DNA of 64,000 bases from Acetomicrobium hydrogeniformans (GCA_016841745.1 JAENYO010000004.1:82026-146025), one strand, 5' to 3'. Shown: positions 1 to 15,550, counted from the stretch's first letter. Notes: generated by a model not told the origin, from the sequence alone. A program made the numbers and translations.

Positions 1-975
1 TATGGCATGGGCGGCGCATATCTTCACACATTCCCCGCACCCTATGCATTTGTTCGGGTCCTGTACGGGGCGGGATATCATGGTATTTCCAAAGAATTTA
101 AGGAAGCCGGGCAGCACGTGAAGGCTGTCGAGACGGGGTATATCCACTCCTTCAATTACGGAGAGGGGATCCAGATCTCCCCTGTAAAGCACTTCTTTGA
201 GGTCGGTCTGGCCTATATTTCTGCGTTTTGCCTCCCGGTAAAGGGGGAAGTCCTCCAGGGGCACACCGAGTATTCTGCAGATGGAGCAGTCCAGGGCTAC
301 GGCATCTGTTGAAGCAGCCAGGATCCCGAAGTTGCGGGGGTATCCGCTTCCGGGTCCGTGTCCTTCCATTCCCCAGATCCCGTCGAGAATTGTGATGACT
401 GGCCTTATAGCCTGGTATATGTCCAGATGAAGGGATGCAAAGATGTCCCTGTCCAGGCCCACCTTGTAGTGCCACTCCGCCTTTCTCTGGGCAACGACTG
501 TTCCGAAAAGGTTCTTTACTCCCAGGGTGAGAAGCATCTGGGCATGGGTCTTGAGCTTGGGAATGTTTATTACTTTATCTGCCTCAAGGACCTTTGAGGA
601 TATCTCTATGTTTTTAAACCTTGCATTTTCATTTCCGGGTACAGGTACCGGGCTGTCCAGCTCCATTACGGGTATACCCAGTTCCTCTCCTGTTTCAGCT
701 ATGCCTGAGGCTTTAGCAACCTGCGGAAATGGCTCTATTCCAGGACTGTCACCTATAAAAGGCTTTGCGCCGCAGTCGAGTACCATGCGGGCAATGATCC
801 TTACCACCATGGGATCGGTGGTTATTCTTTTTGCGACAGGCCTGGCCGACAGCATGTTCGGTTTGAGGAGAACCCTGTCTCCGGGTCTGATAAGGGAATC
901 CATCCCTCCAAGTTCCTGGAGAAGTTTTTCCATGGAGACTTCAAGTTCCTTTTCGGAGTAAGTTCTCTGCGACAT
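1..975 (-). CDS. DUF362-domain protein with ferredoxin-type CxxCxxC motif (C-terminus runs off the window)
   Basis: This gene is absent from the supplied ORF track because it is edge-truncated. My own minus-strand translation starts at the ATG at 975-973: MSQRTYSEKELEVSMEKLLQELGGMDSLIRPGDRVLLKPNMLSA...NIPKLKTHAQMLLTLGVKNLFG...ILDGIWGMEGHGPGSG...NKCIGCGECVKICAAHAI. The frame is open for all 325 codons down to position 1. The KPN, KLKTH and MEGxGPxxG motifs fit DUF362. Confidence 0.8.
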   Translation of the reverse strand, partial: MSQRTYSEKELEVSMEKLLQELGGMDSLIRPGDRVLLKPNMLSARPVAKRITTDPMVVRIIARMVLDCGAKPFIGDSPGIEPFPQVAKASGIAETGEELGIPVMELDSPVPVPGNENARFKNIEISSKVLEADKVINIPKLKTHAQMLLTLGVKNLFGTVVAQRKAEWHYKVGLDRDIFASLHLDIYQAIRPVITILDGIWGMEGHGPGSGYPRNFGILAASTDAVALDCSICRILGVPLEDFPLYREAKRRNIGQTDLKEVLYRGDLDPLSVIEGVDIPRLDSLHVLPGFLKFFGNTMISRPVQDPNKCIGCGECVKICAAHAI

Positions 976-1091
976 CAGTGCTACTGTGGACAAAGGGTAT
1001 CCCTCCTCTATGGCCTTATTCTATACCAGGTCATACCGGCACTCCAGCTTTTATGTTATTCTAATTCCGGACTTTAAATGGTATTGCATGA

Positions 1092-1649
1092 ATGGATAAA
1101 TACAGGTGTCCCGATGGAGAGGGGGGTAGGACTGTGACTTCGGATGAGCGTAGAGTTTCCATAATGGAGCTGTTGAAAACAAGGGGCAGGTGCATGAAGG
1201 GGATAGAGCTTGCAGAGATCTTCAATGTGAGCAGGCAGGTCATTGTTCAAGATATCGCTGTTCTTCGAGCTTCGGGCGAGGCTATAATCGCCACCCCAAC
1301 GGGCTACTTTGTTACTCCTCCCAGGGAGAGCGTTTCTCTCAGAAAGACCATTGTAACGAAACATGAAGGGGTGGATTCCATTGAAGAGGAACTTGTCACC
1401 ATAGTGGACAATGGAGGAAAGATCCTCGATGTGATAGTGGAGCACCCAGTCTACGGAGAGATAAGGGGAAACCTCATGGTGGGCACCAGGTACGATGTGG
1501 AGCAGTTCATGAAGAAGGTAAGGGAAGACAGGGCAGAACCACTTTCATCCCTCACGGAGGGACTGCATCTTCACACCATTGAAGTTCCCGATGAGGAAAC
1601 CTATGAACGTATTCTCCGGGAACTGAAAAAAAGAAACTACTTGATATAA
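1092..1649 (+). CDS. niaR: NiaR-type (HTH + 3H domain) niacin-responsive transcriptional repressor
   Basis: The N-terminus has an HTH (ERRVSIMELLKTRGRCMKGIELAEIFNVSRQVIVQDIAVLRASG). The C-terminus has a 3H-type domain (VEHPVYGEIRGNL...GLHLHTIE). The true start is probably the GTG near 1134, behind GGAGAGGGGGG. Confidence 0.8.
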   Translation: MDKYRCPDGEGGRTVTSDERRVSIMELLKTRGRCMKGIELAEIFNVSRQVIVQDIAVLRASGEAIIATPTGYFVTPPRESVSLRKTIVTKHEGVDSIEEELVTIVDNGGKILDVIVEHPVYGEIRGNLMVGTRYDVEQFMKKVREDRAEPLSSLTEGLHLHTIEVPDEETYERILRELKKRNYLI

Positions 1650-1728
1650 AACTCATAGACTGGTATATTTTTTTAACTGTTGGTGACAAGACAGCTGTAA
1701 AGTCATTTATATTTCCGAGGAGGTCCTC

Positions 1729-2751
1729 ATGACAGGCAAAACAGTAAAGTCCTTTGAAATCCAGGATTATGTAGTAAAGGTTCTGAATGGAATGGCCCTT
1801 GGCCTTTTTTCTTCGCTTATCATCGGCCTGATAATAAAACAGATAGCAAATTACACCGGTTTCGAGATGGCTGCTTCCTTTGGCCAGGTTGCCCAGTACA
1901 TGATGGGTCCTGCCATTGGTGCCGGTGTTGCCTACAGCGTGGGTGCTTCACCCCTGGGGATATTCGCTTCCATAATCACGGGAGCCATCGGAGCGGGTAC
2001 CATAGGTCTTGGTGGAGGTGCACCCACTCTCCATATTGGTGAGCCCATGGGGGCCCTTATCGCTTCTCTTACGGGAGCCGAGATCTCAAAGCTTATTCGG
2101 GGGAGGACCAAGGTGGATATAGTCCTGGTGCCAGCGGGAACAATTCTCGCAGGGGGATTGGCCGGCGTATATGCCGGGCCGTGGATAGCGGATCTCATGT
2201 ATTTCCTGGGAAACGTCATAAACATGGCCACCAGGCTCCACCCACTGCCCATGGGTATCCTTGTTTCGGTGATGATGGGGATGATCCTCACCCTTCCTAT
2301 AAGCAGTGCGGCCCTGGCTATTTCCCTTGGACTGAGCGGTCTGGCCGCCGGTGCGGCCACGGTGGGGTGTTCATGCCAGATGATCGGTTTTGCCGTTCAG
2401 AGCTATCGTGAAAATGGGCCGGGAGGTCTTATATCCCAGGGCCTTGGCACTTCCATGATCCAGATCCCGAATATAGTTAAAAATCCCTGGATATGGGTGC
2501 CCCCGACCCTGAGTTCCGCCATACTCGGGCCCTTTGCCACCCTGCTTTTCAGGATGGAGAACAACAAGATAGGGGCGGGAATGGGCACCAGCGGACTGGT
2601 GGGGCAGTTCGGTACCCTTGCCGTTATGGGTTCAAAGGCCTGGACGGGTATTATCCTTCTTCATTTCGTCCTCCCCGCCCTTCTCACCCTGTTCTTTTCC
2701 GAGTATATGAGGAAAAAGGGATTGATCAAGGCGGGGGATCTGTCTTTATAG
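1729..2751 (+). CDS. Polytopic membrane protein, PTS-EIIC-like (EIIC_2-type) putative transporter
   Basis: 340 aa, Gly/Ala-rich, about 9-10 predicted TM segments (LNGMALGLFSSLIIGLIIKQI...). There is an AGGAGG RBS before the ATG. It lies directly downstream of niaR. Confidence 0.6.
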   Translation: MTGKTVKSFEIQDYVVKVLNGMALGLFSSLIIGLIIKQIANYTGFEMAASFGQVAQYMMGPAIGAGVAYSVGASPLGIFASIITGAIGAGTIGLGGGAPTLHIGEPMGALIASLTGAEISKLIRGRTKVDIVLVPAGTILAGGLAGVYAGPWIADLMYFLGNVINMATRLHPLPMGILVSVMMGMILTLPISSAALAISLGLSGLAAGAATVGCSCQMIGFAVQSYRENGPGGLISQGLGTSMIQIPNIVKNPWIWVPPTLSSAILGPFATLLFRMENNKIGAGMGTSGLVGQFGTLAVMGSKAWTGIILLHFVLPALLTLFFSEYMRKKGLIKAGDLSL

Positions 2752-4326
2752 GATGGAGGGCCATCCCTCCAGTTTTCCGTAGCTTACGGTGCCGCCCACC
2801 ATGGTGAGGAGCGGTTTTACATACCTTAATGTATGGGGGGGTGCGGCTGTTATATCCCTGTCGAGAATTACAAGGTCGGCAGCATAGCCCTTCTTCAGCA
2901 TACCGAAGCGGGAGGAAAGGCCAATGGCCTTCCATGGGTTGGAGGTGAAGAGGGGCAGCGTTTCCTCCAGAGTGAGTTTCTGGTCCGGTTTCCATCCTCC
3001 CTCGGGAGATCCCGTTTCATCTGTCCTGTTGAGGGCTGCCCAGATCCCCCGAAAGGGGTCCGTCGATTCCACGGGGGCATCGCTCGATCCGGTGAGTAGA
3101 AGTCCTGCTTTTATAAGGTCCTTCCAGGCGTAGGCCCAGGGTTCCCTTTCCATCCCCAGTCTCTGGCCGGCTATGGAGATATCGCTGGGTACAAAACCGG
3201 GTTGTATGTCGCATATGGCCTGCAGTTTTTTTAGAGCCTCCATCTGCCCGGGGCGGCATATCTGCACATGGACGATCCTGTGGCGAAGGTTGGAAGTGCT
3301 CTGGGGACCATGGGCATAGGCATATCCCAATCCTTCAATAAACTGGTCAATGGCAGCATCTCCAATGGCATGTACCTGGACCTGAATATTTCTCGAGTGC
3401 ATTTCCAGCATACGTTCCCGGACCTCTTCGGCAGTATGGTTGAGGACCCCCATGTTACCGGGCTGATCCTCATAGGGCAGGGTAAGGGCGGCGGTCCTTC
3501 CTCCCAGGGAGCCGTCAAGGAACATCTTGTAACCTCCGTAGCGGATCCAGTCGTCTCCATCCCCGCTCTCTAAGCCCGGTTCGGGCAGGTCATCAGTGTA
3601 ATAGATCACTCTCAGGGGGAGTTTCTCTTCTTCTTTCAGTTTCCGGTATATATCCATATCTTCCTCAAGCCCGTAGGAAGTGCATCCGCATGTGTGGACG
3701 CAGGTCAGACCCTGGGATGCCATTTTCAGGCATGTGCGGTGCAGGGCATCTTTCATTCTGGAGGGATTGTACATCTGAAGCTGCATCTGTTCGGTTATCT
3801 TTGACGCCTGATCTTCATAAAGGACATCTATATTAGCAGGAAGGCCGACCTTTTTAAGAGCAAGAGAGTTGGCCACATGGATATGGGCACAGACCCTTAC
3901 CAGCACCACTGGGTTATCCAGGTTCAGTCCGTCGAGATCCTGCCTTGTGGGAAGCCTTTTTTCGGGCCAGGAAGAGTCATCGAACCTCACTCCATATATC
4001 CATTCCCCGGGGTTGAGGCGGGATGCTTTTTCTCTTATGATCTCCAGCATTTCCTTCAGGGACGATGCTTCATTCAACGAAAGGGCCTCCATCTGTTTTG
4101 CCACGGAAGCAAGGTGGAGGTGGGAATCTGTGAGCCCCGGGATAAGGGTGTTTCCTTCCAGATCGATCTTCAGGGCTCCTGCAGCTCCCGGATGACAATT
4201 CACTTCATCGGAACTGCCGATGCAGGCTATCCTGTTTTCCGAGATGATCATGGATCCCGCAAGAGGGGCTTCAGGGTTTCCTGTAAGAATGGTCCCGCCG
4301 GAGATAAGAAGATCTTTATAATACAT
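2746..4326 (-). CDS. Amidohydrolase-3 family metal-dependent hydrolase (YtcJ-like)
   Basis: 526 aa. The N-terminal beta-sandwich is followed by the LIPGLTDSHLHL metal motif, with VQVHAIGD and GSSDAP motifs downstream. It is divergent from the IclR gene. Confidence 0.85.
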   Translation of the reverse strand: MYYKDLLISGGTILTGNPEAPLAGSMIISENRIACIGSSDEVNCHPGAAGALKIDLEGNTLIPGLTDSHLHLASVAKQMEALSLNEASSLKEMLEIIREKASRLNPGEWIYGVRFDDSSWPEKRLPTRQDLDGLNLDNPVVLVRVCAHIHVANSLALKKVGLPANIDVLYEDQASKITEQMQLQMYNPSRMKDALHRTCLKMASQGLTCVHTCGCTSYGLEEDMDIYRKLKEEEKLPLRVIYYTDDLPEPGLESGDGDDWIRYGGYKMFLDGSLGGRTAALTLPYEDQPGNMGVLNHTAEEVRERMLEMHSRNIQVQVHAIGDAAIDQFIEGLGYAYAHGPQSTSNLRHRIVHVQICRPGQMEALKKLQAICDIQPGFVPSDISIAGQRLGMEREPWAYAWKDLIKAGLLLTGSSDAPVESTDPFRGIWAALNRTDETGSPEGGWKPDQKLTLEETLPLFTSNPWKAIGLSSRFGMLKKGYAADLVILDRDITAAPPHTLRYVKPLLTMVGGTVSYGKLEGWPSIL

Positions 4327-4467
4327 TGGAGTTCCCCCTTCAGGGTTTCGTGAAGATCAGTCTGGATAAACCGGATCTTTGCAGTTTGTCTCTATTTATA
4401 GTATACCTAATGGTGATTTCTTTACAATTTACGCTGCTATTTACGCTGCAGCAGGGGAGGTCATGAT

Positions 4468-5220
4468 TTGTCGAGTGTTAACAAGGCCCTTCAGATATTG
4501 AGGAAACTTGGAGAACCGCCCTACGAGTATTCCCTTACAGAGCTTTCTGGAGAACTGGGTTTGTCCAGGAGTAACCTTTTCAAGATCCTCAGGGACCTGG
4601 AAAACAATTTTTTTGTTATCAAGGCCCCTTCTTCGAAAAAATACCATCTTGGTCCCATAAATCTCAGGCTTGGAAGGGTTTACAGCAGGCTTGTGGGGTT
4701 TAACGAGATCGCAAAGCCGGTTCTGAAAAATCTTTGCGAAATAATCGGCGAGACCGTATATACCTGTATCTGGGAGGGAGACAGGGTAGTGGTCCTGGAC
4801 AAGGAAACCTGCCAGGGGAGCCTCTACGACAAGAATGATTTTATCGGTAAAAGCCTTCCCGTAAACTGCGGATCTTCCGGAAAACTGTTATTTGCATACA
4901 GGGAACCCGAAAAAATACCCCTTCTTATCAGGAATTTACCACTGCAGAAAAGGACTGAAAACACCCTTATGGATGTGGATCAGCTCCTCAAGGAGTACGC
5001 CGATATAAGGAAAAAGGGCTATTCCTTCGAGGATGAGACCTTCGACAGGGGAGTTATCGGGCTGTCTGTTCCCATTTTTTCCAAGAACGGTGAAGTTACC
5101 TTCTGTCTTTCCATGAATGCGGAGAAAACGGAGAAAAATCTTGACAGGGTACCCTTCTGGCTGCGAAACCTTCAGACCGCTGCCGAAAATATCTCCTATC
5201 ATCTACAGTTCAGATACTGA
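4468..5220 (+). CDS. IclR-family transcriptional regulator
   Basis: 250 aa with a wHTH (LTELSGELGLSRSNLFKILRDLENNFFV) and an IclR effector domain. The start is TTG, 7 nt after GGGGAGG. Confidence 0.85.
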   Translation: MSSVNKALQILRKLGEPPYEYSLTELSGELGLSRSNLFKILRDLENNFFVIKAPSSKKYHLGPINLRLGRVYSRLVGFNEIAKPVLKNLCEIIGETVYTCIWEGDRVVVLDKETCQGSLYDKNDFIGKSLPVNCGSSGKLLFAYREPEKIPLLIRNLPLQKRTENTLMDVDQLLKEYADIRKKGYSFEDETFDRGVIGLSVPIFSKNGEVTFCLSMNAEKTEKNLDRVPFWLRNLQTAAENISYHLQFRY

Positions 5221-5283
5221 GTATTCTTAATCTTCCATGGTTCAGCAGGGGAGTGTACCCGGACAGTAAAAAACTGCCGTAAG

Positions 5284-5340
5284 TTTTCCATATAGGAAAA
5301 AGGTTTTTTTACTTGACAAAAAGTGTCTATATATTAAGAT
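5284..5340 (+). promoter_or_regulatory. Candidate kamA promoter (TTGACA-16-TAAGAT) preceded by inverted repeat TTTTCC-ATATA-GGAAAA
   Basis: The inverted repeat is at 5284-5300. TTGACA is at 5313-5318 and TAAGAT at 5335-5340. The element sits between the IclR gene and kamA. Confidence 0.4.
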
Positions 5341-5403
5341 AATTCTGATAAGATGGAATTATCCTGGAGAAATTCTATTTTATTTTAACAAGGGGAGGAA
5401 AGT

Positions 5404-6681
5404 ATGATGCAGAAATATCGAGACAGGCGGTCAGTACCCATGTGGAAGGATGTTTCAGATGAAGACTGGAACAGCTGGAAATGGCAGATAGCCAACAGGA
5501 TAACCTCTGTGGAGAAACTAAGGCAGGTTATCAATATTTCAGATGAAGAGGCAGCGGTCATCGATAAAAGCCTGAACAGGCTCCGTATGGCCATAACTCC
5601 CTATTACGCTTCCCTCATGGATCCCGATGATCCGACCTGTCCTGTGCGTATGCAGGCTGTCCCGACGGTATCAGAAACTCATATAGCGGATTCGGACATT
5701 TGCGATCCCCTACACGAGGATGTGGATTCTCCCGTTCCAGGATTGACCCATCGTTATCCCGACAGGGGCCTTCTCCTTGTTACGGACCAGTGCTCCATGT
5801 ACTGCAGGCACTGTACCAGGAGGAGACATGCGGGAGAAACCGACAGGGCCTATTCACAGGAACAGATAGCTAAATGCATTGAATATGTGAAAAATACTCC
5901 CACATTCCGTGATGTTCTCCTTTCAGGAGGAGATCCATTCACCATTGATGAAGACCTTCTTGAATGGACCATTGCAGAGCTTTCGGCCATTCCCCATGTT
6001 GATTTTGTCCGTATAGGGACAAGGACTCCCGTGGTGTGTCCCCAGAGAGTGACGAAGAAGCTGTGCAGCATGCTTAAAAAATATCATCCCCTATGGATCA
6101 ATGTCCATTTCAACCATCCCAAGGAAATAACTCCGGAATCCACAAGGGCATGCAATATGCTGGCAGATGCAGGTGTGCCCCTCGGGAACCAGTCTGTTCT
6201 TCTTAAAGGCGTAAACGACTGTCCCCTCATCTTCAGGGAACTGAATCAGCAGCTGCTGAAAATAAGGGTAAGACCCTACTACATTTACCAGTGTGACCTT
6301 TCCGAGGGAATTGAGCATTTCAGGACTTCCATCGGCAAGGGTATCGAGATAATCGAGTTCCTCAGGGGCCATACCTCCGGCCTTGCTGTACCTTATTTCA
6401 TAGTGGATGCTCCAGGCGGCGGCGGCAAGATCCCCGTAATGCCCAACTACATCGTGTCCAGATCCGACAGGACGGTCCTTCTCAGGAATTACGAGGGTGT
6501 CATTACCACCTACAAGGAGCCGGAGGATAACCTGAGCAGGCCTGAAGAACTTTATCATCACGAAGAATATGTGGAGCGCCAGAAGGCTCTGTCCAACGAG
6601 GGACTGATCAAACTCTTCAATGGCCAGGAACTTTCCCTTGAACCATCCCATCTCGACCGGCACGAAAGGAACAAAAAATAA
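5404..6681 (+). CDS. kamA: L-lysine 2,3-aminomutase (radical SAM, PLP)
   Basis: 425 aa, near-collinear with my recollection of clostridial KamA. Shared motifs include WNSWKWQIANRI, LRMAITPYY, PLHEDVDSPVPGLTHRYPDR, the CSMYCRHCTRRR radical-SAM cluster motif, RPYYIYQCDLSEGIEHFRT and VDAPGGGGK. Confidence 0.95.
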   Translation: MMQKYRDRRSVPMWKDVSDEDWNSWKWQIANRITSVEKLRQVINISDEEAAVIDKSLNRLRMAITPYYASLMDPDDPTCPVRMQAVPTVSETHIADSDICDPLHEDVDSPVPGLTHRYPDRGLLLVTDQCSMYCRHCTRRRHAGETDRAYSQEQIAKCIEYVKNTPTFRDVLLSGGDPFTIDEDLLEWTIAELSAIPHVDFVRIGTRTPVVCPQRVTKKLCSMLKKYHPLWINVHFNHPKEITPESTRACNMLADAGVPLGNQSVLLKGVNDCPLIFRELNQQLLKIRVRPYYIYQCDLSEGIEHFRTSIGKGIEIIEFLRGHTSGLAVPYFIVDAPGGGGKIPVMPNYIVSRSDRTVLLRNYEGVITTYKEPEDNLSRPEELYHHEEYVERQKALSNEGLIKLFNGQELSLEPSHLDRHERNKK

Positions 6682-6691
6682 AGCATAAGAG

Positions 6692-7945
6692 GTGGATTAT
6701 CCGTTAAGGGAGGAAGCTTTGAAGGATCCCACAGGGAAAATAGCTGAGACATGCATCAGCCGGGAAAGGGTAATATCCCTTCTTGGTGACCTTGTGAAGA
6801 TACGGAGTCCCTACTTTTCCGAAAAGGACATAATGGATTTCACTCATAGCTGGCTTGAAGCCAGGGGAATTCCTGTCCATTTCCACCACTTTCACGAAAA
6901 GAAGATATGCGATTTCAGGGGAACAAACGTGATAGGGTCCATCGAAGGTGATTCGGTGGGCCCCACGGTTCTTCTCAACGGACATCTCGATACGGTAAAG
7001 CTCTGTGACGGATGGACCAGGGACCCCTACGGATGCGAGATGGAGGGGGACCGCATGTATGGTCTAGGCACCTGTGATATGAAGTCAGGCTGTGCCGCCC
7101 TTATGCTCGCCATTGAAGCCTTCCTTTGCAATACTGAAAATTTCTCAGGAAAGATAGTCTACAGTTTTGTCTGTGATGAAGAGGGACCCTTCGGCCTTGG
7201 GACGGATGCCCTCATCCTCGATGGCATAATTAACGATTCCATGGATGTCGCTGTAATAACCGAGCCCAGCAGTTCCTTTGCCCATGATCCCTATCCCAGC
7301 CTCAGTCTCGGAGCCAGGGGCGGCTGGAATTACAGGGTTCATGTCAGAGGCAGGTCATCCCACGGAGCTCAGCCGGAACTCGGAATAAATGCCATAAGCG
7401 AGGCTGCCAGGATCCTTCTGGAACTTGAAAAGACAGAACTTCCCATCCATGAAAAACTTGGTCCCGGATCCATATGCTGTATCGATTTTGAGGGAGGAGG
7501 AGCAGCTCTTTCCGTTCCGGATACGGCCTCCTTTTCAGTGTTCAGACATGTTACGGTTGGAGAGGACAAGGAAAACATCCTGGCTGAGGTTCAGGATGCA
7601 GTAAGAAGAGCCCATATACAGGGCCAGGCTTCCATCAGTTTCCGGGAAGCCCCCCACCCCCAATGTGACGGATTCCCTGCCTATGTTGTTCCCGAAGAAA
7701 ATCCCTTCGTACACATCATGAAAGAGTCCATTAAATCCACAACAGGAAAACTACCGGTCATTGATTATTTCAGCAGTGTTGGAGATTTCTGTTACACAGG
7801 AGGACGTCTTCATATTCCTACCCTGGTAACCGGACCCCAGGGGGGGAACTTCCATTCTGCTGATGAATACGTAAATATAAGTACCGTTGAGTCGACAGCA
7901 AAGGTCGTACTGGAGTTTCTGACCCGGACTTTGAGTGCCCGGTAA
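6692..7945 (+). CDS. M20-family metallo-deacylase/peptidase (ArgE/DapE/YodQ-like)
   Basis: It has the NGHLDTV and GLGTCDMKSG motifs and a dimerisation domain. The likely true start is TTG at 6719, 6 nt after AAGGGAGG. Confidence 0.85.
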   Translation: MDYPLREEALKDPTGKIAETCISRERVISLLGDLVKIRSPYFSEKDIMDFTHSWLEARGIPVHFHHFHEKKICDFRGTNVIGSIEGDSVGPTVLLNGHLDTVKLCDGWTRDPYGCEMEGDRMYGLGTCDMKSGCAALMLAIEAFLCNTENFSGKIVYSFVCDEEGPFGLGTDALILDGIINDSMDVAVITEPSSSFAHDPYPSLSLGARGGWNYRVHVRGRSSHGAQPELGINAISEAARILLELEKTELPIHEKLGPGSICCIDFEGGGAALSVPDTASFSVFRHVTVGEDKENILAEVQDAVRRAHIQGQASISFREAPHPQCDGFPAYVVPEENPFVHIMKESIKSTTGKLPVIDYFSSVGDFCYTGGRLHIPTLVTGPQGGNFHSADEYVNISTVESTAKVVLEFLTRTLSAR

Positions 7946-8106
7946 ACTCTCGGAAAGGAGAGGAACAGGATCACAGAGGGGACGGACATCCTGGTCTTTC
8001 GGGCTGTGTGGTGCGTTGCTTGAGTGTTGTTGTGTTTCCCTTTTACGGTTTTCCAGGGTATTGAAGGGAAGACAGGTAAAGGGACTGGAAAGGAGGAGAA
8101 GAGATC

Positions 8107-9597
8107 GTGAAGCTTCATCTGCTTGATGTCATCGTCGTTATCCTCTACTTTATTTCCCTTATCTCTATAGGATACTACATCATGAAACAGGCTACGGTAA
8201 ATAAGGAGAATGAGTCCTTCCTCGCTGCAGACAGGAATATGGGACTCATCAGGACCACCGGTTCTTCTGCCGCAACGGATCTTGGCGGAGGTTTCAGTAT
8301 TGCCATGGGAGGGCTCGGTTTCAGCATGGGGATCTCAGGATCCTGGCTTATAGGCGTTTCCGGACTAAGTGCCGTGCTGGCAGGTCTTTTTCTAGCCCCG
8401 AAGCTCAAACGCTGGTCGGACAAGGTCATGGGGCTCACTACGGGTGACCTTTTTGAATCCCGTTTTGACAAAAAAACAGGTCTGGTGGCGGCCCTGCTAA
8501 TAGGTCTTGCATGGTGGACCTTTGTGGGAGGACAGGTAATAGCCGGGGCAAAACTGGTTTCCGGTACTATCGGGCTAAGCGTGTCCACTACCATAATGAT
8601 AGCCGGGGCGATAATACTGGCCTATACTTCCATGGGCGGTCTGAAGGCTGTTATCACCCTCGATGTTTATCAGCTTGTAGTCCTTTTTACAGGAGTTATC
8701 TTTATCCTTGTGCCAATAGGTTTATCAAAGGTGGGCGGCCCCACTGCACTTTTCGAACAGCTGAGGGCAAACCCGGATACAGCGGGTCTTACAGAATGGG
8801 GAGCCGTGGGATGGAAGACGGCCATCGGCTGGTTCCTTTCCATCTTCCCGGTCTGGTTCATCTCCATAGCCACGTTCCAGAGGGTTATAGCAGCCAAGGA
8901 TGTGAAGACTGCAAAATGGGGCATCTTCCTTACAGGTTTTCCCATTGAATGGCCCCTTTTCGCAATAGGAATGACCCTGGTAGGGCTTCTGGCCCATTTG
9001 CTTGTTCCGGGGTTACAGGACGCAGAACTTGCTACCCCCACAATGATAGTTACCCTCCTTCCCGTGGGTCTGGCGGGTCTTGTAGTTGCTGCTTACATGG
9101 CTGCTGTCCTTTCAACGGCCGACTCCTGCCTGATGGGTTCAGTTGCTATTTTCACGAATGATATTTACAGAAAACGGATGAACCCCAAGGCCACCGACAA
9201 ACAGCTTATGAGGGTAAACAGGCTTGCTGTCCTTATCATGGGTGCATTTGCCATCGGTCTGGCCTACAAGATACCCAGGGTCATAGACCTGGTTATGTAT
9301 GCCTACACCTTCGGTGCAGGCGGATTATTCTTCCCCATGCTTGCTCTTCTGTTCTGGAGGAGGGCTACGGCCACTGGTGCTTTCTGGAGCATCCTTCTTG
9401 GGGGAGGTTCTTCACTTGTATGGTCCCTGATGGGCGATCCAGGCGGATTCTCCGGTTCCTATATCGGCTGGGCGGTATCTTTCATTGCCATTGTGGGCAT
9501 ATCCCTTATGACAGAGCATAGCCCGGATGAGCAGGTGGAACTCTTTTTTGAGGAAGATAAGGTGAGCGTAAGGACACAGAAAGGCGCTGCCGATTGA
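8107..9597 (+). CDS. Sodium:solute symporter family (SSF) transporter
   Basis: 496 aa with about 13 TM segments and SSF-like N-terminal organisation. The GTG start follows an AGGAGG. Confidence 0.8.
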   Translation: MKLHLLDVIVVILYFISLISIGYYIMKQATVNKENESFLAADRNMGLIRTTGSSAATDLGGGFSIAMGGLGFSMGISGSWLIGVSGLSAVLAGLFLAPKLKRWSDKVMGLTTGDLFESRFDKKTGLVAALLIGLAWWTFVGGQVIAGAKLVSGTIGLSVSTTIMIAGAIILAYTSMGGLKAVITLDVYQLVVLFTGVIFILVPIGLSKVGGPTALFEQLRANPDTAGLTEWGAVGWKTAIGWFLSIFPVWFISIATFQRVIAAKDVKTAKWGIFLTGFPIEWPLFAIGMTLVGLLAHLLVPGLQDAELATPTMIVTLLPVGLAGLVVAAYMAAVLSTADSCLMGSVAIFTNDIYRKRMNPKATDKQLMRVNRLAVLIMGAFAIGLAYKIPRVIDLVMYAYTFGAGGLFFPMLALLFWRRATATGAFWSILLGGGSSLVWSLMGDPGGFSGSYIGWAVSFIAIVGISLMTEHSPDEQVELFFEEDKVSVRTQKGAAD

Positions 9598-9620
9598 TAT
9601 CCAATAAAGGTGTGTGATCT

Positions 9621-9650
9621 AAAGGCTGCTTCCATAAGGGAGCAGCCTTT
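9621..9650. terminator. Bidirectional hairpin between convergent genes
   Basis: AAAGGCTGCT-tccataaggg-AGCAGCCTTT gives a perfect 10-bp stem, extendable, flanked by A and T runs. Confidence 0.7.
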
Positions 9651-9693
9651 GTAAATTGTTTTCTCTGCTGGAGCATTTACTATTGCCATGAGA

Positions 9694-12600
9694 CTATTCC
9701 TTTGGAAACAGGTTTTTCAGGATGCCTTCGAGGAACTGTTCCTTAAGCTGCTCACCCGTTTCATCGTCTTTTTTACTGCCCCCTGGACCGACGGGGAAAT
9801 TAAGCCTGATGGTGATCTGGTTGTTGTTTATCTTTTGTCTGTCCTTTTCCGAGTCTTCCATTTGCAGAAGATCCTGCAGGTATTCCTGCCCCCCTTCAAC
9901 TTTCAGATTCTTTATCTCGGGAGAGGCCCTGTTTCCTCCTATTTCAAAGTTTATGGTCCGAAAGTCCTTTCGTTTAATTCCAGTAAGGCTTCCAAGAATA
10001 TCTTTGACCAGGTCTCCCTGGGAGAGAACAGTTTTTAATGCGATCTGGAGGGTCCCCATAAAGGCATTGAAAGCCTGGATATTTACCTCTGCAGATCCCT
10101 TTAGATCGAGATCTCCGTCGTACTGGATGTTTCCATCCACCTCTATCTGCCGGTAGAGAGGGTATTTCCGGGGAGCTTCCACCCGGCTTCCTCCGAGGAT
10201 GGTAAGGCCGAACCCGTCTGCGAGGAAGTTGCTTCTCAGCTTCTGAAACCTGATCCTCTCTTCCCCTGCTGTAGCGGCGGCGGCCTTTATGGCCGGAATT
10301 CCTCCTATATCCCCTTCCCGTATTTCAAGAACACCGTATCCGAAAAAGCCGTAGGGGTTGAAGCCCCTTCCCTTGAATTTAACATCAAAAAAGGTTTTTC
10401 CCGTCAATTTCTGCGAAAGGGCGGGGATGGATTCTGTCGCCTTGCCCAGATCCAGGTCTACTCCCTTAAGGGACATATGCCATGCCAGATCGTCAAGGTC
10501 AATTCCCATGTCTCCGGATACTGTCCCTTCGAAACTTTTTATTTTCATTCCCTTTATCTCTGCTTTGTTTGCGGTTATGTCCAGGGGGATATCCATGCTT
10601 TCCAGGGGAAAGTCCTGAATAAGCAGAGCCCGGGAACTGATATTTCCTTCGCCGTTCAATTTACCCTTCGTAAAATTTCCCTGGATCTGCATGTCTATAT
10701 TGCCGGAAATATCGACAGAGCATGCTTCTTCCTCTCTGGGAAGAAGATAGGCCAGGTCCAGATCACTGCCTACAAGGTTGAAATAGATATCTGTCCCTTT
10801 CTCCAGGAGCATGAGGGACATGCCTCCCGTAAGAAGACCTTCTCCCACTTTTACATTGAGACTGGTTATGTCTATTTTTTTTCTTGAGGCGCTTCCCCTG
10901 AGATCTATGGATCTCAGCACAGCACAGCCGGAAGAGACAAGGGGAGATAATGCCTGGAAGGAAATCTTTGGGTCGGAGGGTGATCCCTTTATGGTGATGG
11001 TTCCTTCTGTAGTTCCCTTTGTAACAGGAAGGCCTGTAAAGGGGAGATCCTCCAGTTCCAGGTTTTTGAAAGATGCCTTGAGGTCAAGAAGGGGGGAGGG
11101 TGCAGTAATGATCTTGCCAGCGGCAGTAAATTCCCCATCAAGAATGGATGTGCTGATGTCCCGTATGATCAGGTCAGGAGCCTTCCATGAAATGTTGGCA
11201 TTTACATCCTGCAGGACCATATCGCTTATTGTGGCGAGGGGAGTGGATATCTCGAGGAGAGGTTCTTCCTGCCCCTTTATGGAAGCCTTTGCCTCGATGG
11301 TTTCGGCCTTTACAAGGTCTCCCATTCTAAACTGCCTGCCCTGTAAAGTTCCTTCAATGAGGAGGTTCTTGAGTGGTCCTCTGATAGAAGCCTTCAGGTC
11401 TGCCTTTCCTTTTAGATCTTCCGGCGGTGATGGGACCAGACGGGCGGCCCTTTCAAGATCCAGGTTTTTTCCGGAGATCCCGAGATCCAGAACGGGAGAA
11501 GTGAATATGGACAGGATCTTTCCGCTTCCGGTTAATTCTCCTCCCAGCATTTTTGCATATAGCCTGTCCAGGTTCATGGTACCCTTTGCGACCGAAAAGA
11601 AAATGCTGAAATCATCAAAGGGTTCCTTCCTGATACTGAATTTCCTGGATGAAAGGGAACCCTTTATTGCGGGATCCTTTATATTTCCTCTGAGTTCAAG
11701 GGATAATGCCATTGAACCCTCAGGTTCGAGCGCAGAGAGTGACGGAGCCATCCTTGGGAGAATTGCGAGGTCAATGACCGGGGCTTTGAGGCTGAACTCC
11801 ATGGCGGGTTCTTTCGACAGGTCCAAAGTCCCCCCGGCCTGTGCCTCTGTTCCTGACCATGAGAGGGATGAATCCAGAAGGATCTTCTTTCCTTCCAGAA
11901 GGATATTGAGTTTCATGGAATCGAATTTCTGTCCCGAAATAGAGAAACCTCCTGAAGCGAGGTCCATTCTTCCCGTTAACCATGGAAGTTTCCCAGATAC
12001 ATCCAGCTGGAGGTTGTCTATCCTGCCATTCATTTCGGGGATGGCCATTTTCAGTTCTGATGCCTTTGACAGGTCCAGGTCCCTGCCTTGTGCCTTTATC
12101 TTCAGTTCTCCCTCTGTGTTTATGGAAAGGTCCCCTTCGATCCTGCTTCCCAGGATCTCATTAACCATCTCATCAATTTTGAAGGCATTCTGTGCAAAGG
12201 ACCATCGGCCGGATATGGAACCGATCGACTTTCCTCCTATTTCTCCTCCTGCCAGGGAAAATGTCCCTCCTGCCTCGGGTTCGGCCGGAGTGCCCTTTCC
12301 ATAGAGGGTGGAACTGAAGATCCCCTTTGCGTCCATAAATCTTTCATCCAGGCTGCTAAGGCCGGACAGGTCCAGACTCTCCACAGTTCCGGTTATATCC
12401 ATTAGGGGACTTATGTCACCCGAAAGGACGATGCGTCCCTCCTTACCCAGGTCGAACATGCCTTTGGCGAGATGGATCCTGTCTCCCATTTCAAGAATTG
12501 TTTCGATTTTCCATGGCAGGGTGTCGACTCTGCCGGACAGGTCCAGATCTACTGTTTCTGAGCTATATAATATTCTCCCCCTGTCAGCAAGGATCTGATG

Positions 12601-13077
12601 GCCGGGGATCCTGACGTCGAAACTCTCTAATTCAATGGGCAGGGGAGGGATAGGCAGTTTTTTACCGGATGGTTCCGATCTCAAAAGGGCCAGCTTTGCG
12701 GGATCCTTTATGTCTATCATGGAGCCGGAAATACCTATCTTTTCGACGGGGTCCCAGGTGAAAACTTTAAGCAGATCCAGATCGACCTCTATTGTCTGGA
12801 TGGAGGCACTGAAGATATCATCAGAGGCCAGGTAAAGACCCTCTATACGATAACCCTGCCAGGGGTTGCCGGTTACCCTTTCGATATTTCCCTCAAAACC
12901 GGCTGAAATCAGACCTTTCACAATGGCCTTATGTATCATTCCGGTTGCCATATCCCTGTTCTTCAAGAAAGGAATAAGGCCAAGGGATAGAAGAAGGAGG
13001 AAGAGCAGTAAATATTTAAAGATCCTCCAAAGGGGAAACTTCTTTTTTTCAGGTTGATTCTTTTTTGTTTCAGCCAT
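9694..13077 (-). CDS. AsmA/TamB-like giant envelope protein (N-terminal anchor, long beta-rich repeat body)
   Basis: 1127 aa. The N-terminus is KKKFPLWRIFKYLLLFLLLLSLGLIPFL, a signal anchor. The body consists of repetitive segments of the type G.L.L.G.. D.. I.G. Confidence 0.6.
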   Translation of the reverse strand: MAETKKNQPEKKKFPLWRIFKYLLLFLLLLSLGLIPFLKNRDMATGMIHKAIVKGLISAGFEGNIERVTGNPWQGYRIEGLYLASDDIFSASIQTIEVDLDLLKVFTWDPVEKIGISGSMIDIKDPAKLALLRSEPSGKKLPIPPLPIELESFDVRIPGHQILADRGRILYSSETVDLDLSGRVDTLPWKIETILEMGDRIHLAKGMFDLGKEGRIVLSGDISPLMDITGTVESLDLSGLSSLDERFMDAKGIFSSTLYGKGTPAEPEAGGTFSLAGGEIGGKSIGSISGRWSFAQNAFKIDEMVNEILGSRIEGDLSINTEGELKIKAQGRDLDLSKASELKMAIPEMNGRIDNLQLDVSGKLPWLTGRMDLASGGFSISGQKFDSMKLNILLEGKKILLDSSLSWSGTEAQAGGTLDLSKEPAMEFSLKAPVIDLAILPRMAPSLSALEPEGSMALSLELRGNIKDPAIKGSLSSRKFSIRKEPFDDFSIFFSVAKGTMNLDRLYAKMLGGELTGSGKILSIFTSPVLDLGISGKNLDLERAARLVPSPPEDLKGKADLKASIRGPLKNLLIEGTLQGRQFRMGDLVKAETIEAKASIKGQEEPLLEISTPLATISDMVLQDVNANISWKAPDLIIRDISTSILDGEFTAAGKIITAPSPLLDLKASFKNLELEDLPFTGLPVTKGTTEGTITIKGSPSDPKISFQALSPLVSSGCAVLRSIDLRGSASRKKIDITSLNVKVGEGLLTGGMSLMLLEKGTDIYFNLVGSDLDLAYLLPREEEACSVDISGNIDMQIQGNFTKGKLNGEGNISSRALLIQDFPLESMDIPLDITANKAEIKGMKIKSFEGTVSGDMGIDLDDLAWHMSLKGVDLDLGKATESIPALSQKLTGKTFFDVKFKGRGFNPYGFFGYGVLEIREGDIGGIPAIKAAAATAGEERIRFQKLRSNFLADGFGLTILGGSRVEAPRKYPLYRQIEVDGNIQYDGDLDLKGSAEVNIQAFNAFMGTLQIALKTVLSQGDLVKDILGSLTGIKRKDFRTINFEIGGNRASPEIKNLKVEGGQEYLQDLLQMEDSEKDRQKINNNQITIRLNFPVGPGGSKKDDETGEQLKEQFLEGILKNLFPKE

Positions 13078-13265
13078 ATTAAGCCCCTTAAGACCATTTA
13101 ATAATCTGTTTAAAGTGGTACAGTCTATAATATTATACCTTACTATTTTGGCTAATTAGTCAATGGCAGCTGAAAGTTCTCTTGAACCCTGTGAGTTTTA
13201 TTACATAACAGGTATAATTACCTTGAATCTTTTATTCCATTCCAGTAGCAGAGAGAGGTGTTTCC

Positions 13266-14102
13266 ATGAGCCAGCAGTTCAGTATATGGCCCCTGTTATT
13301 TATTTTTTTTATTATCTATCCCCAGGTAACCCAGTGGATCTTGAGGTATAGAAGAGTTACAGCTTTGAGAACTTGTGAAAAGAACAGGGGAAGCAGGATC
13401 ATAACCCTTATCCACAGGCAGGAAAGTGTGGGATTCCTGGGTATGTTTTCCCGGAATTACATAAACATCGAAGATTCAGAAGAGGTTCTCAGGGCTATCC
13501 GGATGACCTCCGATGACACCCCCATTGACCTGATAATCCATACACCCGGCGGACTTCTCCTTGCAGCAGAACAGATCGCCAAGGCCCTGAATGACCATCC
13601 TGCAAAGGTTACTGTAGTTGTCCCCCATTATGCCATGTCAGGGGGAACCCTTATTGCCCTTGCTGCAGACGAGATCCTCATGGACAAACATGCCGTTCTT
13701 GGACCGGTGGATCCCCAGATAGGCCAGTTCCCTGCCGTTTCCCTTCTAAAGGTGGTTGAGGAAAAGCCTATTGCAGAAATTGATGACGAGACCCTTATCC
13801 TTGCTGATGTGGGAAGAAAGGCTATTGTTCAGACAAACAAATTCGTCTTTGACCTCCTGGTAGATAATATGGATGAGAATAAGTCCAGGGAAATTGCCAC
13901 CAAGCTTACCGAGGGCCGCTGGACCCATGATTATCCCATCACCCCCGAAGAGGCAAAAGAGATAGGCCTTCCCATCAATACGGAACTGGATGGACACATA
14001 TGTAACATAATGAGCCTTTATCCCCAGTCGGGGAAGGGCAGACCTTCCGTACAGTATATTCCCATGCCCTATCCCAAGGTTCCGGGTACAAAGGGGAACT
14101 GA
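13266..14102 (+). CDS. SDH-family ClpP-fold serine protease (membrane-anchored)
   Basis: It has an N-terminal TM segment, then RGSRIITLIHRQE and IDLIIHTPGGLLLAAEQIAKAL...HYAMSGGTLIALAADEILM. Confidence 0.8.
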   Translation: MSQQFSIWPLLFIFFIIYPQVTQWILRYRRVTALRTCEKNRGSRIITLIHRQESVGFLGMFSRNYINIEDSEEVLRAIRMTSDDTPIDLIIHTPGGLLLAAEQIAKALNDHPAKVTVVVPHYAMSGGTLIALAADEILMDKHAVLGPVDPQIGQFPAVSLLKVVEEKPIAEIDDETLILADVGRKAIVQTNKFVFDLLVDNMDENKSREIATKLTEGRWTHDYPITPEEAKEIGLPINTELDGHICNIMSLYPQSGKGRPSVQYIPMPYPKVPGTKGN

Positions 14103-14175
14103 AGATCTGCAGGAAATGTAGAGTAGAGTATCTGCCCGGTCTTGTCTTTGTTTTCTTCAGAAGAATGATTTCAGA

Positions 14176-14207
14176 AGAGGGTTCCGGACAGTTTCGGAGC
14201 CCTCTTT
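14176..14207 (+). terminator. Hairpin after the protease gene
   Basis: AGAGGGtTCCG-gacagttt-CGGAgCCCTCT followed by TTT. Confidence 0.45.
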
Positions 14208-14238
14208 AAGTTTACAGGGAGAGGAGTAGATATACCGG

Positions 14239-15543: not shown

Positions 15544-15550
15544 TAAAAAG

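What the first reader, a model, noticed from the sequence alone, without database searches (positions are those of the whole stretch)
2746..9597. IclR-centred module: amidohydrolase, then kamA, an M20 deacylase and an SSF symporter, with no beta-lysine fermentation or acetylation genes
The KamA here is a very close match to authentic lysine 2,3-aminomutase. The window lacks kamD/kamE, kdd, kce and kal (lysine fermentation), and it also lacks a GNAT gene such as ablB (N-epsilon-acetyl-beta-lysine synthesis). Instead kamA is co-transcribed with an ArgE/DapE-type M20 deacylase and a Na+ symporter. It is flanked divergently by an IclR regulator and an Amidohydro_3 hydrolase.

As far as I recall, an M20 deacylase (yodQ) also lies near kamA in Bacillus subtilis. 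One coherent reading is an uptake/salvage route. An N-acylated (beta-)lysine derivative, for example the methanogen osmolyte N-acetyl-beta-lysine, would be imported and deacylated. The reversible aminomutase would then convert it to L-lysine. The alternative reading is production of beta-lysine from an imported acyl-lysine.
Basis: partly seen in the sequence, partly recalled or inferred. Interest (0 to 1): 0.55.

Follow-up and report, generated by a model that had tools for sequence, protein, structure and literature searches.

The report
Lysine aminomutase operon with feeder hydrolase
A Synergistota bacterium links the enzyme that interconverts lysine and beta-lysine to an uncharacterised amide-cleaving enzyme and a sodium-driven importer in one regulated operon. 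The genome has no known use for beta-lysine, so the operon most likely salvages lysine from an imported beta-lysine compound.

Summary
Amidohydro_3 (2746-4326, -), IclR (4468-5220), KamA (5404-6681), an M20 deacylase (6692-7945) and an SSF symporter (8107-9597) are all present.

- **KamA is authentic.** It scores 602 bits against TIGR03820 and keeps both lysine-binding Asp residues.
- **No known beta-lysine sink.** The whole 99.6%-complete genome lacks kamD/E, kdd, kamB, ablB and epmA. True kamD was found in 0 of 151 Synergistota genomes.
- **Conserved operon.** kamA-M20-SSF recurs in at least six Synergistota families.
- **The M20 clade tracks KamA.** It is uncharacterised. KamA is present in 46 of 50 genomes that carry it. 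It lies inside classical lysine-fermentation operons in Halanaerobium praevalens and Spirochaetia.
- **Sister-genome comparison.** A same-genus genome keeps kamA and the amidohydrolase but has cleanly lost IclR and M20-SSF. It keeps a two-ATP-grasp plus GNAT beta-lysine ligase cassette, which this genome lacks. This scan has already met that cassette on other DNA in about 290 genomes.

Best reading (0.45): SSF imports a beta-lysine amide, M20 frees beta-lysine, and KamA runs backwards to give L-lysine. Main rival (0.3): an acyl-L-lysine is converted to lysine and then beta-lysine. The substrate is not identified. N-acetyl-beta-lysine remains a candidate, not a result.

The parts
2746..4326 (-). 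Amidohydro_3 (YtcJ-like) metal-dependent amidohydrolase, 526 aa, cytoplasmic. Possible second hydrolase of the system.
   Evidence: PF07969, E = 2e-99. HxH motifs at residues 69 and 148, and no TM or signal segment. Closest solved structures are the uncharacterised 3ICJ and 3IGH. Orthologs (45-53% id) occur in 12 of 16 M20-positive Synergistota genomes, often adjacent to kamA or M20. It is retained at 89% identity in sister genome G176, which lost M20-SSF. It is not orthologous to the Clostridial M20-adjacent Amidohydro_3 genes.
4468..5220 (+). IclR-family transcription regulator, 250 aa
   Evidence: HTH_IclR plus IclR_C. It lies within a 1029-bp segment (4341-5369) that is absent from the same-genus genome G176, as is M20-SSF. 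It is present in the same position in L113/L114.
5284..5300 (.). Perfect inverted repeat TTTTCC-ATATA-GGAAAA, candidate IclR operator
   Evidence: Read. It is 17/17 identical in L113, and together with the adjacent -35 box is the only strongly conserved block of the IclR-kamA spacer.
5313..5340 (+). Sigma-70-like promoter TTGACA-16-TAAGAT for kamA-M20-SSF
   Evidence: Best promoter-like match of 2600-9900, 10 of 12 positions. The -35 box and a GATAAT box are conserved in L113.
5404..6681 (+). kamA, lysine 2,3-aminomutase (radical SAM/PLP), 425 aa
   Evidence: TIGR03820 at 602 bits, cut-off 525.4. E = 1.5e-173 to 2A5H. C130xxxC134xxC137, D298 and D335 (= Asp293/Asp330 of 2A5H) and PLP-Lys K342 are present. 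Single copy in the genome. 61 synonymous against 8 nonsynonymous codon differences from G176.
6692..7945 (+). M20A (ArgE/DapE-like) dinuclear metallo-amidohydrolase of an uncharacterised clade. Probable start is TTG 6719, behind a GGGAGG ribosome-binding site.
   Evidence: PF01546 plus PF07687. Below every NCBIfam equivalog cut-off. The metal and catalytic residues H98, D100, D129, E163/E164, E191, H224 and H388 are invariant in 23 orthologs and align to the DapE motifs. AlphaFold model pLDDT 91.5; best folds are DapE/ArgE at 20-22% identity. KamA occurs in 46 of 50 genomes that carry this clade.
8107..9597 (+). Sodium:solute symporter (SSF), 496 aa, presumed importer of the substrate
   Evidence: PF00474, E = 7e-48. 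Below the PutP and PanF equivalog cut-offs. Multiple TM segments. 84-88% identical orthologs lie directly after M20 in Synergistota and 63-69% ones in Halanaerobiales.
9620..9651 (+). Intrinsic terminator-like hairpin (14-bp stem) ending the operon
   Evidence: Top terminator-like site of the region.
6682..9694 (.). 3.0-kb segment (M20 plus SSF) absent from the same-genus genome G176, with clean breakpoints at the kamA stop codon and the TamB-like gene end
   Evidence: blastn of the window against L095.

Best explanation
kamA-M20-SSF is a self-contained salvage operon controlled by IclR. Its substrate is an amide-linked beta-lysine compound.

Proposed steps:
1. The SSF symporter imports the compound. 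(Inferred.)
2. The cytoplasmic M20 dinuclear amidohydrolase cleaves it to free beta-lysine, possibly helped by the divergently encoded Amidohydro_3 enzyme. (Inferred.)
3. KamA, a reversible lysine 2,3-aminomutase, converts beta-lysine to L-lysine, which enters protein synthesis or general metabolism. (Enzyme identity is shown; the direction is inferred.)
4. IclR binds the conserved TTTTCC-N5-GGAAAA repeat over the promoter and releases it when the substrate or a product is present. (Inferred.)

Candidate substrates are N-acetyl-beta-lysine and the still unknown product of the beta-lysine ligase cassette (KamA, two ATP-grasp ligases, GNAT). Many other Synergistota carry that cassette, including the sister species.

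The broader claim is that M20 plus its transporter form a feeder module functionally tied to KamA and to the lysine/beta-lysine pool. That claim is much better supported (about 0.75) than the direction of flux.
For: **KamA identity**
- Authentic and lysine-specific.

**Operon structure and conservation**
- One promoter and one terminator bracket the three genes.
- The kamA-M20-SSF order recurs in L004, L007, L008, L009, L011, L015, L024, L033, L113-L115, and kamA-M20 recurs in Atribacterota.

**M20 tracks KamA**
- KamA is above cut-off in 45 of 50 M20-bearing genomes, plus one fragment at a contig end.
- In 151 Synergistota genomes, 15 of 16 M20-positive genomes have KamA, against 28 of 135 M20-negative ones.
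- The same M20 clade lies inside lysine-fermentation operons: kamD-kamE-kce-kdd-M20-NhaC-kamB in Spirochaetia and the H. praevalens operon.

**No forward sink for beta-lysine in this genome**
- No KamD, KamE, Kdd or KamB, no AblB, no EpmA, and no ATP-grasp/GNAT cassette.
- Yet kamA is under purifying selection: 61 synonymous against 8 nonsynonymous differences, and a tree branch as short as the sister's.
- A complete chromosome (G101 = G015) shows the same stand-alone operon.

**IclR belongs with M20-SSF**
- Sister genome G176 lost IclR and M20-SSF by two clean deletions but kept kamA.
- The outgroup L113 has the full arrangement, so it is ancestral.

**Other**
- The operator and promoter are conserved.
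- Two genomes (G131, G072) have two kamA copies, one beside M20 and one elsewhere. In G131 the second copy is about 7 kb from the ATP-grasp cassette.
Against: - No biochemical data exist for this M20 clade, the amidohydrolase or the transporter.
- The equilibrium of lysine 2,3-aminomutase favours beta-lysine (my own knowledge, not checked here), so reverse flux needs a pull.
- The genome has lysA and a DAP-pathway operon, so it is not an obvious lysine auxotroph.
- In several Synergistota the only kamA copy sits in this operon while an ATP-grasp cassette lies elsewhere (for example G122). There KamA must also work forwards.
- M20A enzymes usually cleave N-alpha-acyl groups next to a carboxylate (PMC10699109). 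[quoted passage not shown]
- The one kamDE-positive genome without true KamA (G001) has a KamA-like protein that keeps both Asp residues. It therefore does not prove that M20 yields beta-lysine.
- Absence of known sinks does not exclude an unknown one.
Confidence: 0.45

Rival explanations
1. Forward supply route. SSF imports an N-acyl-L-lysine, such as N-alpha- or N-epsilon-acetyl-lysine released by proteolysis. M20 and/or the amidohydrolase free L-lysine. KamA then makes beta-lysine for a downstream user: fermentation in Firmicutes, the ATP-grasp cassette in most Synergistota, and an unknown sink or free beta-lysine here.
For: - M20A enzymes are the known alpha-aminoacylases, and YtcJ-like amidohydrolases are the known epsilon-lysine acylases (PMC10699109). 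This matches the M20 plus Amidohydro_3 pairing.
- The nearest folds are DapE and ArgE, which remove N-alpha-acyl groups from diamino acids.
- M20 co-occurs with KamA whatever lies downstream. That is what an enzyme acting before KamA would show.
- The H. praevalens operon places M20 and an Amidohydro_3 gene among the kamA, kamDE, kce and butyrate genes.
Against: In this genome and in G101, beta-lysine would be a dead end: no KamDE, Kdd, AblB, EpmA or ATP-grasp cassette. Yet kamA is conserved under purifying selection.
Confidence: 0.3
2. The substrate is specifically N-epsilon-acetyl-beta-lysine from methanogens.
For: - N-acetyl-beta-lysine is abundant in methanogens and some bacteria, and is barely turned over by its producers (PMC1224877; PMC11201294).
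- The M20 clade is enriched in halophilic and alkaliphilic anaerobes and in digester Synergistota.
- No catabolic route was found in the searched literature.
Against: [quoted passage not shown]
- It has only one amide bond, which does not explain the recurrent second hydrolase.
- There is no direct evidence of any kind.
Confidence: 0.15
3. M20-SSF is a generic peptide or amino-acid scavenging pair, or a DapE-like biosynthetic enzyme. On this view its position beside kamA has no functional meaning.
For: - The nearest sequence and structure relatives are DapE.
- The genome uses the acetylase DAP pathway, and its operon lacks a deacetylase gene.
- Amino-acid fermenters carry many M20 paralogs.
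Against: - Adjacency to or embedding with kam genes occurs in four phyla.
- 46 of 50 M20-bearing genomes have KamA.
- The clade is present in only 16 of 151 Synergistota genomes and absent from the same-genus genome. It therefore cannot be the housekeeping DAP deacetylase.
- It is below all DapE and ArgE model cut-offs.
- It was lost together with IclR.
Confidence: 0.08

Closest known systems
Classical lysine fermentation pathway (KamA, KamDE, Kdd, Kce, Kal; Fusobacterium nucleatum, Clostridium subterminale; PMC3149608)
   Same: The same first enzyme, KamA, about 68% identical to the solved C. subterminale enzyme. The same M20 clade is embedded in such operons in H. praevalens and Spirochaetia.
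   Different: This genome and all 151 Synergistota genomes searched lack KamD. This genome also lacks Kdd, KamB, and Kce in a kam context. The M20 and transporter are not part of the described pathway.
[quoted passage not shown]
   Same: A KamA/AblA-type aminomutase used outside fermentation, in osmolyte-related beta-lysine chemistry.
   Different: There is no AblB-type GNAT in the genome. A hydrolase and an importer replace the acetyltransferase, which suggests breakdown or salvage rather than synthesis.
Bacillus subtilis yodT-yodS-yodR-yodQ-yodP-kamA operon (from my own knowledge; KamA's function there is still open, PMC6522883)
   Same: kamA is near an M20-type deacylase.
   Different: No GNAT, aminotransferase or CoA-transferase genes lie in or beside the operon here. 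Orthology of this M20 with YodQ could not be tested.
Streptomyces alpha-aminoacylase (M20A) and epsilon-lysine acylase (YtcJ-like amidohydrolase) (PMC10699109)
   Same: The same two enzyme superfamilies, both acting on N-acyl amino acids or N-acyl-lysine.
   Different: Only distant homology. Those enzymes are not linked to KamA or to a transporter.
Ectoine catabolism (DoeA/DoeB hydrolase and deacetylase with uptake systems) (from my own knowledge)
   Same: It works alike: import of a compatible solute, then amide hydrolysis or deacetylation back to a proteinogenic-pathway amino acid.
   Different: Unrelated enzyme families and a different solute.
KamA plus two Ddl-like ATP-grasp ligases plus GNAT cassette
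   Same: It shares KamA and beta-lysine as the hub. It co-occurs with KamA across Synergistota families and is present in the sister genome.
   Different: That cassette builds amide bonds, whereas this operon carries amide hydrolases and an importer. This genome lacks the cassette.

Membership tests
Lysine 2,3-aminomutase (KamA/AblA, EC 5.4.3.2) | Score above the curated equivalog cut-off (TIGR03820) | tested here: met
   602 bits against 525.4. The glutamate and arginine 2,3-aminomutase models and the EpmB model are all below their cut-offs.
Lysine 2,3-aminomutase (KamA/AblA, EC 5.4.3.2) | CxxxCxxC radical-SAM cluster, PLP-binding Lys, and the two Asp residues that bind the lysine epsilon-ammonium group (Asp293/Asp330 of 2A5H) | tested here: met
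   C130/C134/C137, K342, D298 and D335.
Classical lysine fermentation system | kamD/kamE (beta-lysine 5,6-aminomutase), kdd, kce and the kamB reactivase in the genome | tested here: not met
   No hit with PF09043 or with KamD, KamE, Kdd and KamB proteins from real operons. The single BKACE gene lies in an LPS cluster. The search is sensitive: about 900 bits in positive genomes.
AblA/AblB N-acetyl-beta-lysine synthesis | AblB-type beta-lysine N-acetyltransferase (TIGR03827) | tested here: not met
   No match at E <= 0.001 in the 99.56%-complete genome. The controls include Methanosarcina.
EF-P beta-lysylation (EpmA/EpmB) | EpmA (GenX) ligase, and an EpmB-type aminomutase | tested here: not met
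   The best TIGR00462 hit is 214.5 bits against a cut-off of 286.9, in a 520-aa open frame. KamA scores 233 against 369 on the EpmB model.
M20A ArgE/DapE-type deacylase | Dinuclear metal ligands (His, Asp, Glu, Glu, His), catalytic Asp and Glu, and the His of the dimerisation domain | tested here: met
   H98, D129, E164, E191, H388, D100, E163 and H224 are invariant in 23 orthologs. They align to the DapE motifs. The fold matches DapE/ArgE with TM 0.7-0.77.
M20A ArgE/DapE-type deacylase | Membership of a named equivalog (DapE, ArgE, YgeY and others) | tested here: not met
   All NCBIfam models are below cut-off. The best is TIGR01910 at 183.7 against 217.6. The clade is absent from the same-genus genome.
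B. subtilis yod-kamA operon | YodP GNAT, YodT aminotransferase and YodR/S CoA-transferase next to kamA and the M20 YodQ | tested here: not met
   None of these genes is in 1-16000 of the window. No AblB/YodP-type GNAT is in the genome. Orthology of this M20 with YodQ was not tested.
IclR-family regulator | N-terminal HTH_IclR domain plus C-terminal IclR effector domain | tested here: met
   PF09339 and PF01614. A conserved palindrome lies upstream of the regulated promoter. Binding and effector are not testable with these tools.
Epsilon-lysine acylase (EC 3.5.1.17, YtcJ-like) | Close homology to SmELA/SgELA and activity on N-epsilon-acyl-lysine | not tested
   Only the shared superfamily is established (PF07969; PMC10699109).

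The most novel reading that the evidence does not exclude
kamA-M20-SSF, together with the Amidohydro_3 enzyme, is the uptake-and-breakdown counterpart of the widespread beta-lysine ligase cassette (KamA, two ATP-grasp ligases, GNAT), whose product is unknown. M20 and the amidohydrolase would cleave the amide bonds that the two ligases and the GNAT make. Some community members would then produce the compound while others, such as this genome, only scavenge it. The hydrolases would give a direct enzymatic probe for identifying the compound.
Probability: 0.2. Interest if true: 0.8.

Novelty: new variant of a known kind. Interest (0 to 1): 0.6.

Why it matters
- **A missing function for KamA.** Lysine 2,3-aminomutase genes are common in anaerobes that neither ferment lysine nor make N-acetyl-beta-lysine, and their role there is unknown.
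- **A defined candidate enzyme family.** This work defines an uncharacterised M20 clade, with a partner transporter, that tracks KamA across at least five phyla. The clade sits inside textbook lysine-fermentation operons without ever having been assigned a step.
- **A possible new salvage route.** If the clade releases beta-lysine, this would be, as far as the searched literature shows, the first catabolic or salvage route for beta-lysine-based solutes, which their producers barely turn over. It would also show KamA used physiologically in reverse.
- **A handle on an unknown compound.** It could help identify the product of the widespread beta-lysine ligase cassette.
- **A modest result otherwise.** If the clade instead acts on acyl-L-lysines, it adds a feeder step for modified lysines to lysine fermentation.

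Tried and rejected
- **Literature.** Searches on an N-acetyl-beta-lysine deacetylase or its catabolism, kamA with M20, yodQ, and Halanaerobium with aminomutase found no description of this enzyme or operon.
- **Structured RNA.** Rfam at E <= 1 gave no leader or riboswitch in 4200-9900.
- **Structure and language-model look-ups.** The structure prediction with a PDB fold search, and the ESM Atlas, gave only generic DapE/ArgE/M20 matches and no clue to the substrate.
- **A natural KamA knockout.** G001 has a kamDE-kce-kdd-M20-NhaC-kamB operon and no true KamA. Its 363-aa KamA-like protein keeps both Asp residues and the PLP Lys, so the case is inconclusive.
- **Amidohydrolase orthology across phyla.** Rejected. 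In Clostridia, the window's amidohydrolase matches other paralogs better than the ones beside M20.
- **EF-P modification.** Rejected, because EpmA is absent.
- **Housekeeping DapE or N-acetyl-DAP deacetylase.** Rejected, given the patchy distribution and the absence from the sister genome.
- **Lysine auxotrophy as the reason for salvage.** Rejected, because lysA and the dap operon are present.
- **Recent gain of M20-SSF by this genome.** Rejected. The outgroup L113 and the KamA tree show that the arrangement is ancestral and was lost in G176.

Full report
**1. What is in the window**

The five genes are real and lie at the stated coordinates.
- Amidohydro_3, 2746-4326 (-).
- IclR, 4468-5220 (+).
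- KamA, 5404-6681 (+).
- An M20/M20_dimer protein, 6692-7945 (+).
- An SSF symporter, 8107-9597 (+).

KamA passes the curated lysine 2,3-aminomutase model, with 602 bits against a cut-off of 525.4. It fails the glutamate, arginine and EpmB models. It aligns end to end with the solved Clostridium subterminale enzyme 2A5H (E = 1.5e-173). It keeps the CxxxCxxC cluster (C130/134/137), the PLP lysine (K342) and both Asp residues that hold the epsilon-ammonium group of lysine (D298 and D335).

The M20 protein has every metal-binding and catalytic residue of the DapE/ArgE type, invariant in 23 orthologs. It models with confidence (pLDDT 91.5). It falls below every named NCBIfam model and is only 20-22% identical to any solved structure. 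M20 and the amidohydrolase have no signal or membrane segment. The SSF protein is polytopic.

**2. Operon and regulation**

The best promoter-like site of the region (TTGACA-16-TAAGAT, 5313-5340) precedes kamA. The best terminator-like hairpin (9620-9651) follows SSF. M20 probably starts at TTG 6719, behind a GGGAGG site and 38 nt after the kamA stop codon. SSF has an AAGGAGG site. No Rfam family matches.

The palindrome TTTTCC-ATATA-GGAAAA (5284-5300) lies just upstream of the -35 box. The palindrome and the -35 box form the only strongly conserved block of this spacer when it is compared with a more distant relative, L113. That is the expected behaviour of an operator.

**3. The absences hold for the whole genome and the whole phylum**

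The window is C3:82026-146025 of a 3.04 Mb assembly that is 99.56% complete.
- tblastn with KamD, KamE, Kdd and KamB from genuine kam operons finds nothing.
- PF09043 finds nothing, although it scores about 900 bits in positive genomes.
- The single BKACE gene lies among DegT, WbqC, hexapeptide-transferase and GT2 genes, which form a sugar or LPS cluster.
- AblB (TIGR03827) is absent, and so is EpmA.
- lysA and an asd-dapA-dapB-dapD(Ac)-ask-aminotransferase operon are present. The organism can therefore presumably make lysine.
- Across 151 Synergistota species genomes, true KamA occurs in 42-43. True KamD occurs in none; only OraE-like matches of about 150 bits appear.

**4. Synteny of the M20 clade**

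An alignment of M20 orthologs retrieved 80 loci from species genomes.

| Lineage | Arrangement |
|---|---|
| Synergistota | kamA-M20-SSF in L004, L007, L008, L009, L011, L015, L024, L033 and in metagenome contigs L113-L115 |
| Synergistota | An orthologous amidohydrolase upstream in L009, L010, L014, L113 |
| Atribacterota | kamA-M20 |
| Spirochaetia | M20 inside kamD-kamE-kce-kdd-M20-NhaC-(kamA)-kamB |
| Halanaerobium praevalens (isolate, complete genome) | kamD-kamE-NhaC-4HBT-kce-atoDA-NhaC-kamA-thl-M20-hbd-crt-Amidohydro_3-bcd-etfBA-racemase-FmdA/AmdA |
| Many Clostridia | A four-gene unit: NhaC-M20-Amidohydro_3-BTAD regulator |

The transporter family varies (SSF, NhaC or AGCS), but a transporter is almost always adjacent to M20.

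**5. Co-occurrence**

Of 50 genomes that carry the M20 clade, 45 have KamA above cut-off, and one more has a fragment at a contig end. 35 have true KamD and 34 have Kdd. All 12 Synergistota genomes and the Atribacterota genome in that set lack KamD and Kdd. Nearly all the others have both.

In the phylum sample, 15 of 16 M20-positive genomes have KamA, against 28 of 135 M20-negative genomes. These genomes are related, so the counts are descriptive and not a statistical test. The M20-positive genomes are nevertheless spread over six families.

The common denominator of all the contexts is KamA, that is, the lysine/beta-lysine pair. It is not any particular downstream pathway.

**6. The sister-genome comparison**

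A complete same-genus genome, G176, has the same neighbourhood: NiaR, EIIC_2, amidohydrolase (89% identity), KamA (98% identity) and a TamB-like gene. It lacks IclR, M20 and SSF. blastn gives clean breakpoints. Window 4341-5369 (IclR) and 6682-9694 (M20 plus SSF) have no counterpart in G176.

The more distant L113/L114 contigs have the full arrangement in the same chromosomal context. The KamA tree nests G176 inside the M20-linked rows. The arrangement is therefore ancestral, and G176 lost IclR and M20-SSF. The joint loss ties IclR to M20-SSF.

The two genomes also differ in the opposite direction. G176 carries a cluster of two Ddl-like ATP-grasp ligases, a GNAT and a GNAT-deacetylase fusion. 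This genome has a clean gap at the syntenic site, which lies outside the window.

kamA remains under purifying selection. There are 61 synonymous against 8 nonsynonymous codon differences, and the two terminal branches in the tree are equally short.

**7. KamA's usual partner in Synergistota**

In families f3, f4 and f5, kamA lies in an AG1-AG2-GNAT-kamA cluster. AG1 orthologs occur in 38 of 151 genomes, and their distribution by family almost mirrors that of KamA. Outside Synergistota, genomes with the M20 clade lack close AG1 orthologs.

This scan has noted the cassette before on other DNA, in about 290 genomes, and its product is unknown. Two genomes (G131, G072) hold two kamA copies, one beside M20 and one elsewhere. 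In G131 the two copies are recent duplicates.

**8. Interpretation**

*Shown:* an authentic KamA; an intact M20 amidohydrolase of an uncharacterised clade; conserved linkage of the two genes, and of M20 with a transporter; and absence of every known beta-lysine sink in this genome.

*Inferred:* M20 plus the transporter feed the lysine/beta-lysine pool by hydrolysing an imported amide.

The direction of flux is the open point. Here, and in the complete genome G101, the three-gene operon stands alone. The only output that connects to metabolism is L-lysine, which requires a beta-lysine-yielding substrate and reverse KamA flux. I put 0.45 on this reading.

The main rival (0.3) is acyl-L-lysine to lysine to beta-lysine. 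Enzyme-family precedent favours it. M20A enzymes are alpha-aminoacylases, and YtcJ-like amidohydrolases are epsilon-lysine acylases (PMC10699109). It is also favoured by genomes in which the single kamA of this operon must also serve an ATP-grasp cassette.

N-epsilon-acetyl-beta-lysine remains a candidate (PMC1224877), but nothing tested here singles it out.

**9. Limits**

- ORF calls in the fetched loci were made with a simple longest-ORF rule. Some rows in GC-rich loci are antisense artefacts. Conclusions rest on tblastn or HMM matches and not on those calls.
- Many of the genomes are MAGs.
- The amidohydrolase belongs to the system only within Synergistota. Its closest orthologs occur in 12 of 16 M20-positive genomes, but it is not orthologous to the Clostridial copies beside M20.
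- YodQ orthology and homology to the epsilon-lysine acylases were not tested, because no reference sequences were available as tool objects.

Noticed in passing
L108:9136-13530 (sister genome G176). The syntenic gap in the window's own genome is at C3:249181-249701, outside the window.: The same-genus genome carries two Ddl-like ATP-grasp ligases, a GNAT and a GNAT-histone-deacetylase fusion. This genome has a clean gap of about 4.8 kb there. The pattern is reciprocal to the IclR/M20-SSF presence and absence.
   Followed up: partly
L098, L100, L101, L102, L104 (Synergistota families f3-f5): A conserved AG1-AG2-GNAT-kamA cluster. AG1 orthologs occur in 38 of 151 Synergistota genomes, with a family distribution almost identical to that of KamA. 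It is the same uncharacterised cassette that this scan has reported in about 290 other genomes.
   Followed up: partly
window 6430-6620 (KamA C-terminal region): The M20-linked Synergistota KamA clade lacks the C-terminal Cys triad that forms the Zn site in 2A5H. In its place is a PEELYHHEEY-like segment. The ATP-grasp-linked Synergistota, Atribacterota, Spirochaete and Clostridium KamA proteins keep the triad.
   Followed up: partly
L105 (Halanaerobium praevalens CP002175, 1707333-1728541): A co-directional run of about 20 genes that combines lysine fermentation and butyrate genes with three amidohydrolases (M20, Amidohydro_3, FmdA/AmdA), an Orr-like racemase and two NhaC transporters. This suggests that modified or D-lysines are fed into the pathway.
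   Followed up: no
L103:8857-15276 and L111:6398-11340: Another recurrent Synergistota unit: kamA beside NhaC-type transporters. In L103 a saccharopine-dehydrogenase-like gene also lies beside kamA. A 66% identical ortholog of that gene is in this genome at C8:200461-201750, not next to kamA.
   Followed up: no
own genome C10:65047-70658 (L116): The lysine biosynthesis operon asd-dapA-dapB-dapD(N-acetyltransferase type)-aspartate kinase-ArgD-like aminotransferase has no N-acetyl-DAP deacetylase gene. That step must be encoded elsewhere.
   Followed up: no
window 4426-4449: The direct repeat TTTACGCTGC occurs twice in the amidohydrolase-IclR spacer, just upstream of the IclR start. It is not conserved in L113.
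   Followed up: partly
own genome C8:227500-231000 (L002:7047-11555): The genome's only BKACE (beta-keto acid cleavage enzyme) gene lies among DegT aminotransferase, WbqC, hexapeptide acetyltransferase and GT2 genes. This is an unusual setting for that family, inside a sugar or LPS cluster.
   Followed up: no
L085:1330-2421 (Spirochaetia genome G001): A 363-aa KamA-family protein lies next to an HD/Nudix protein. It keeps both lysine-binding Asp residues and the PLP Lys but falls below all equivalog cut-offs. It is the only KamA-like gene in a genome with a full kamDE-kce-kdd-M20 operon.
   Followed up: partly
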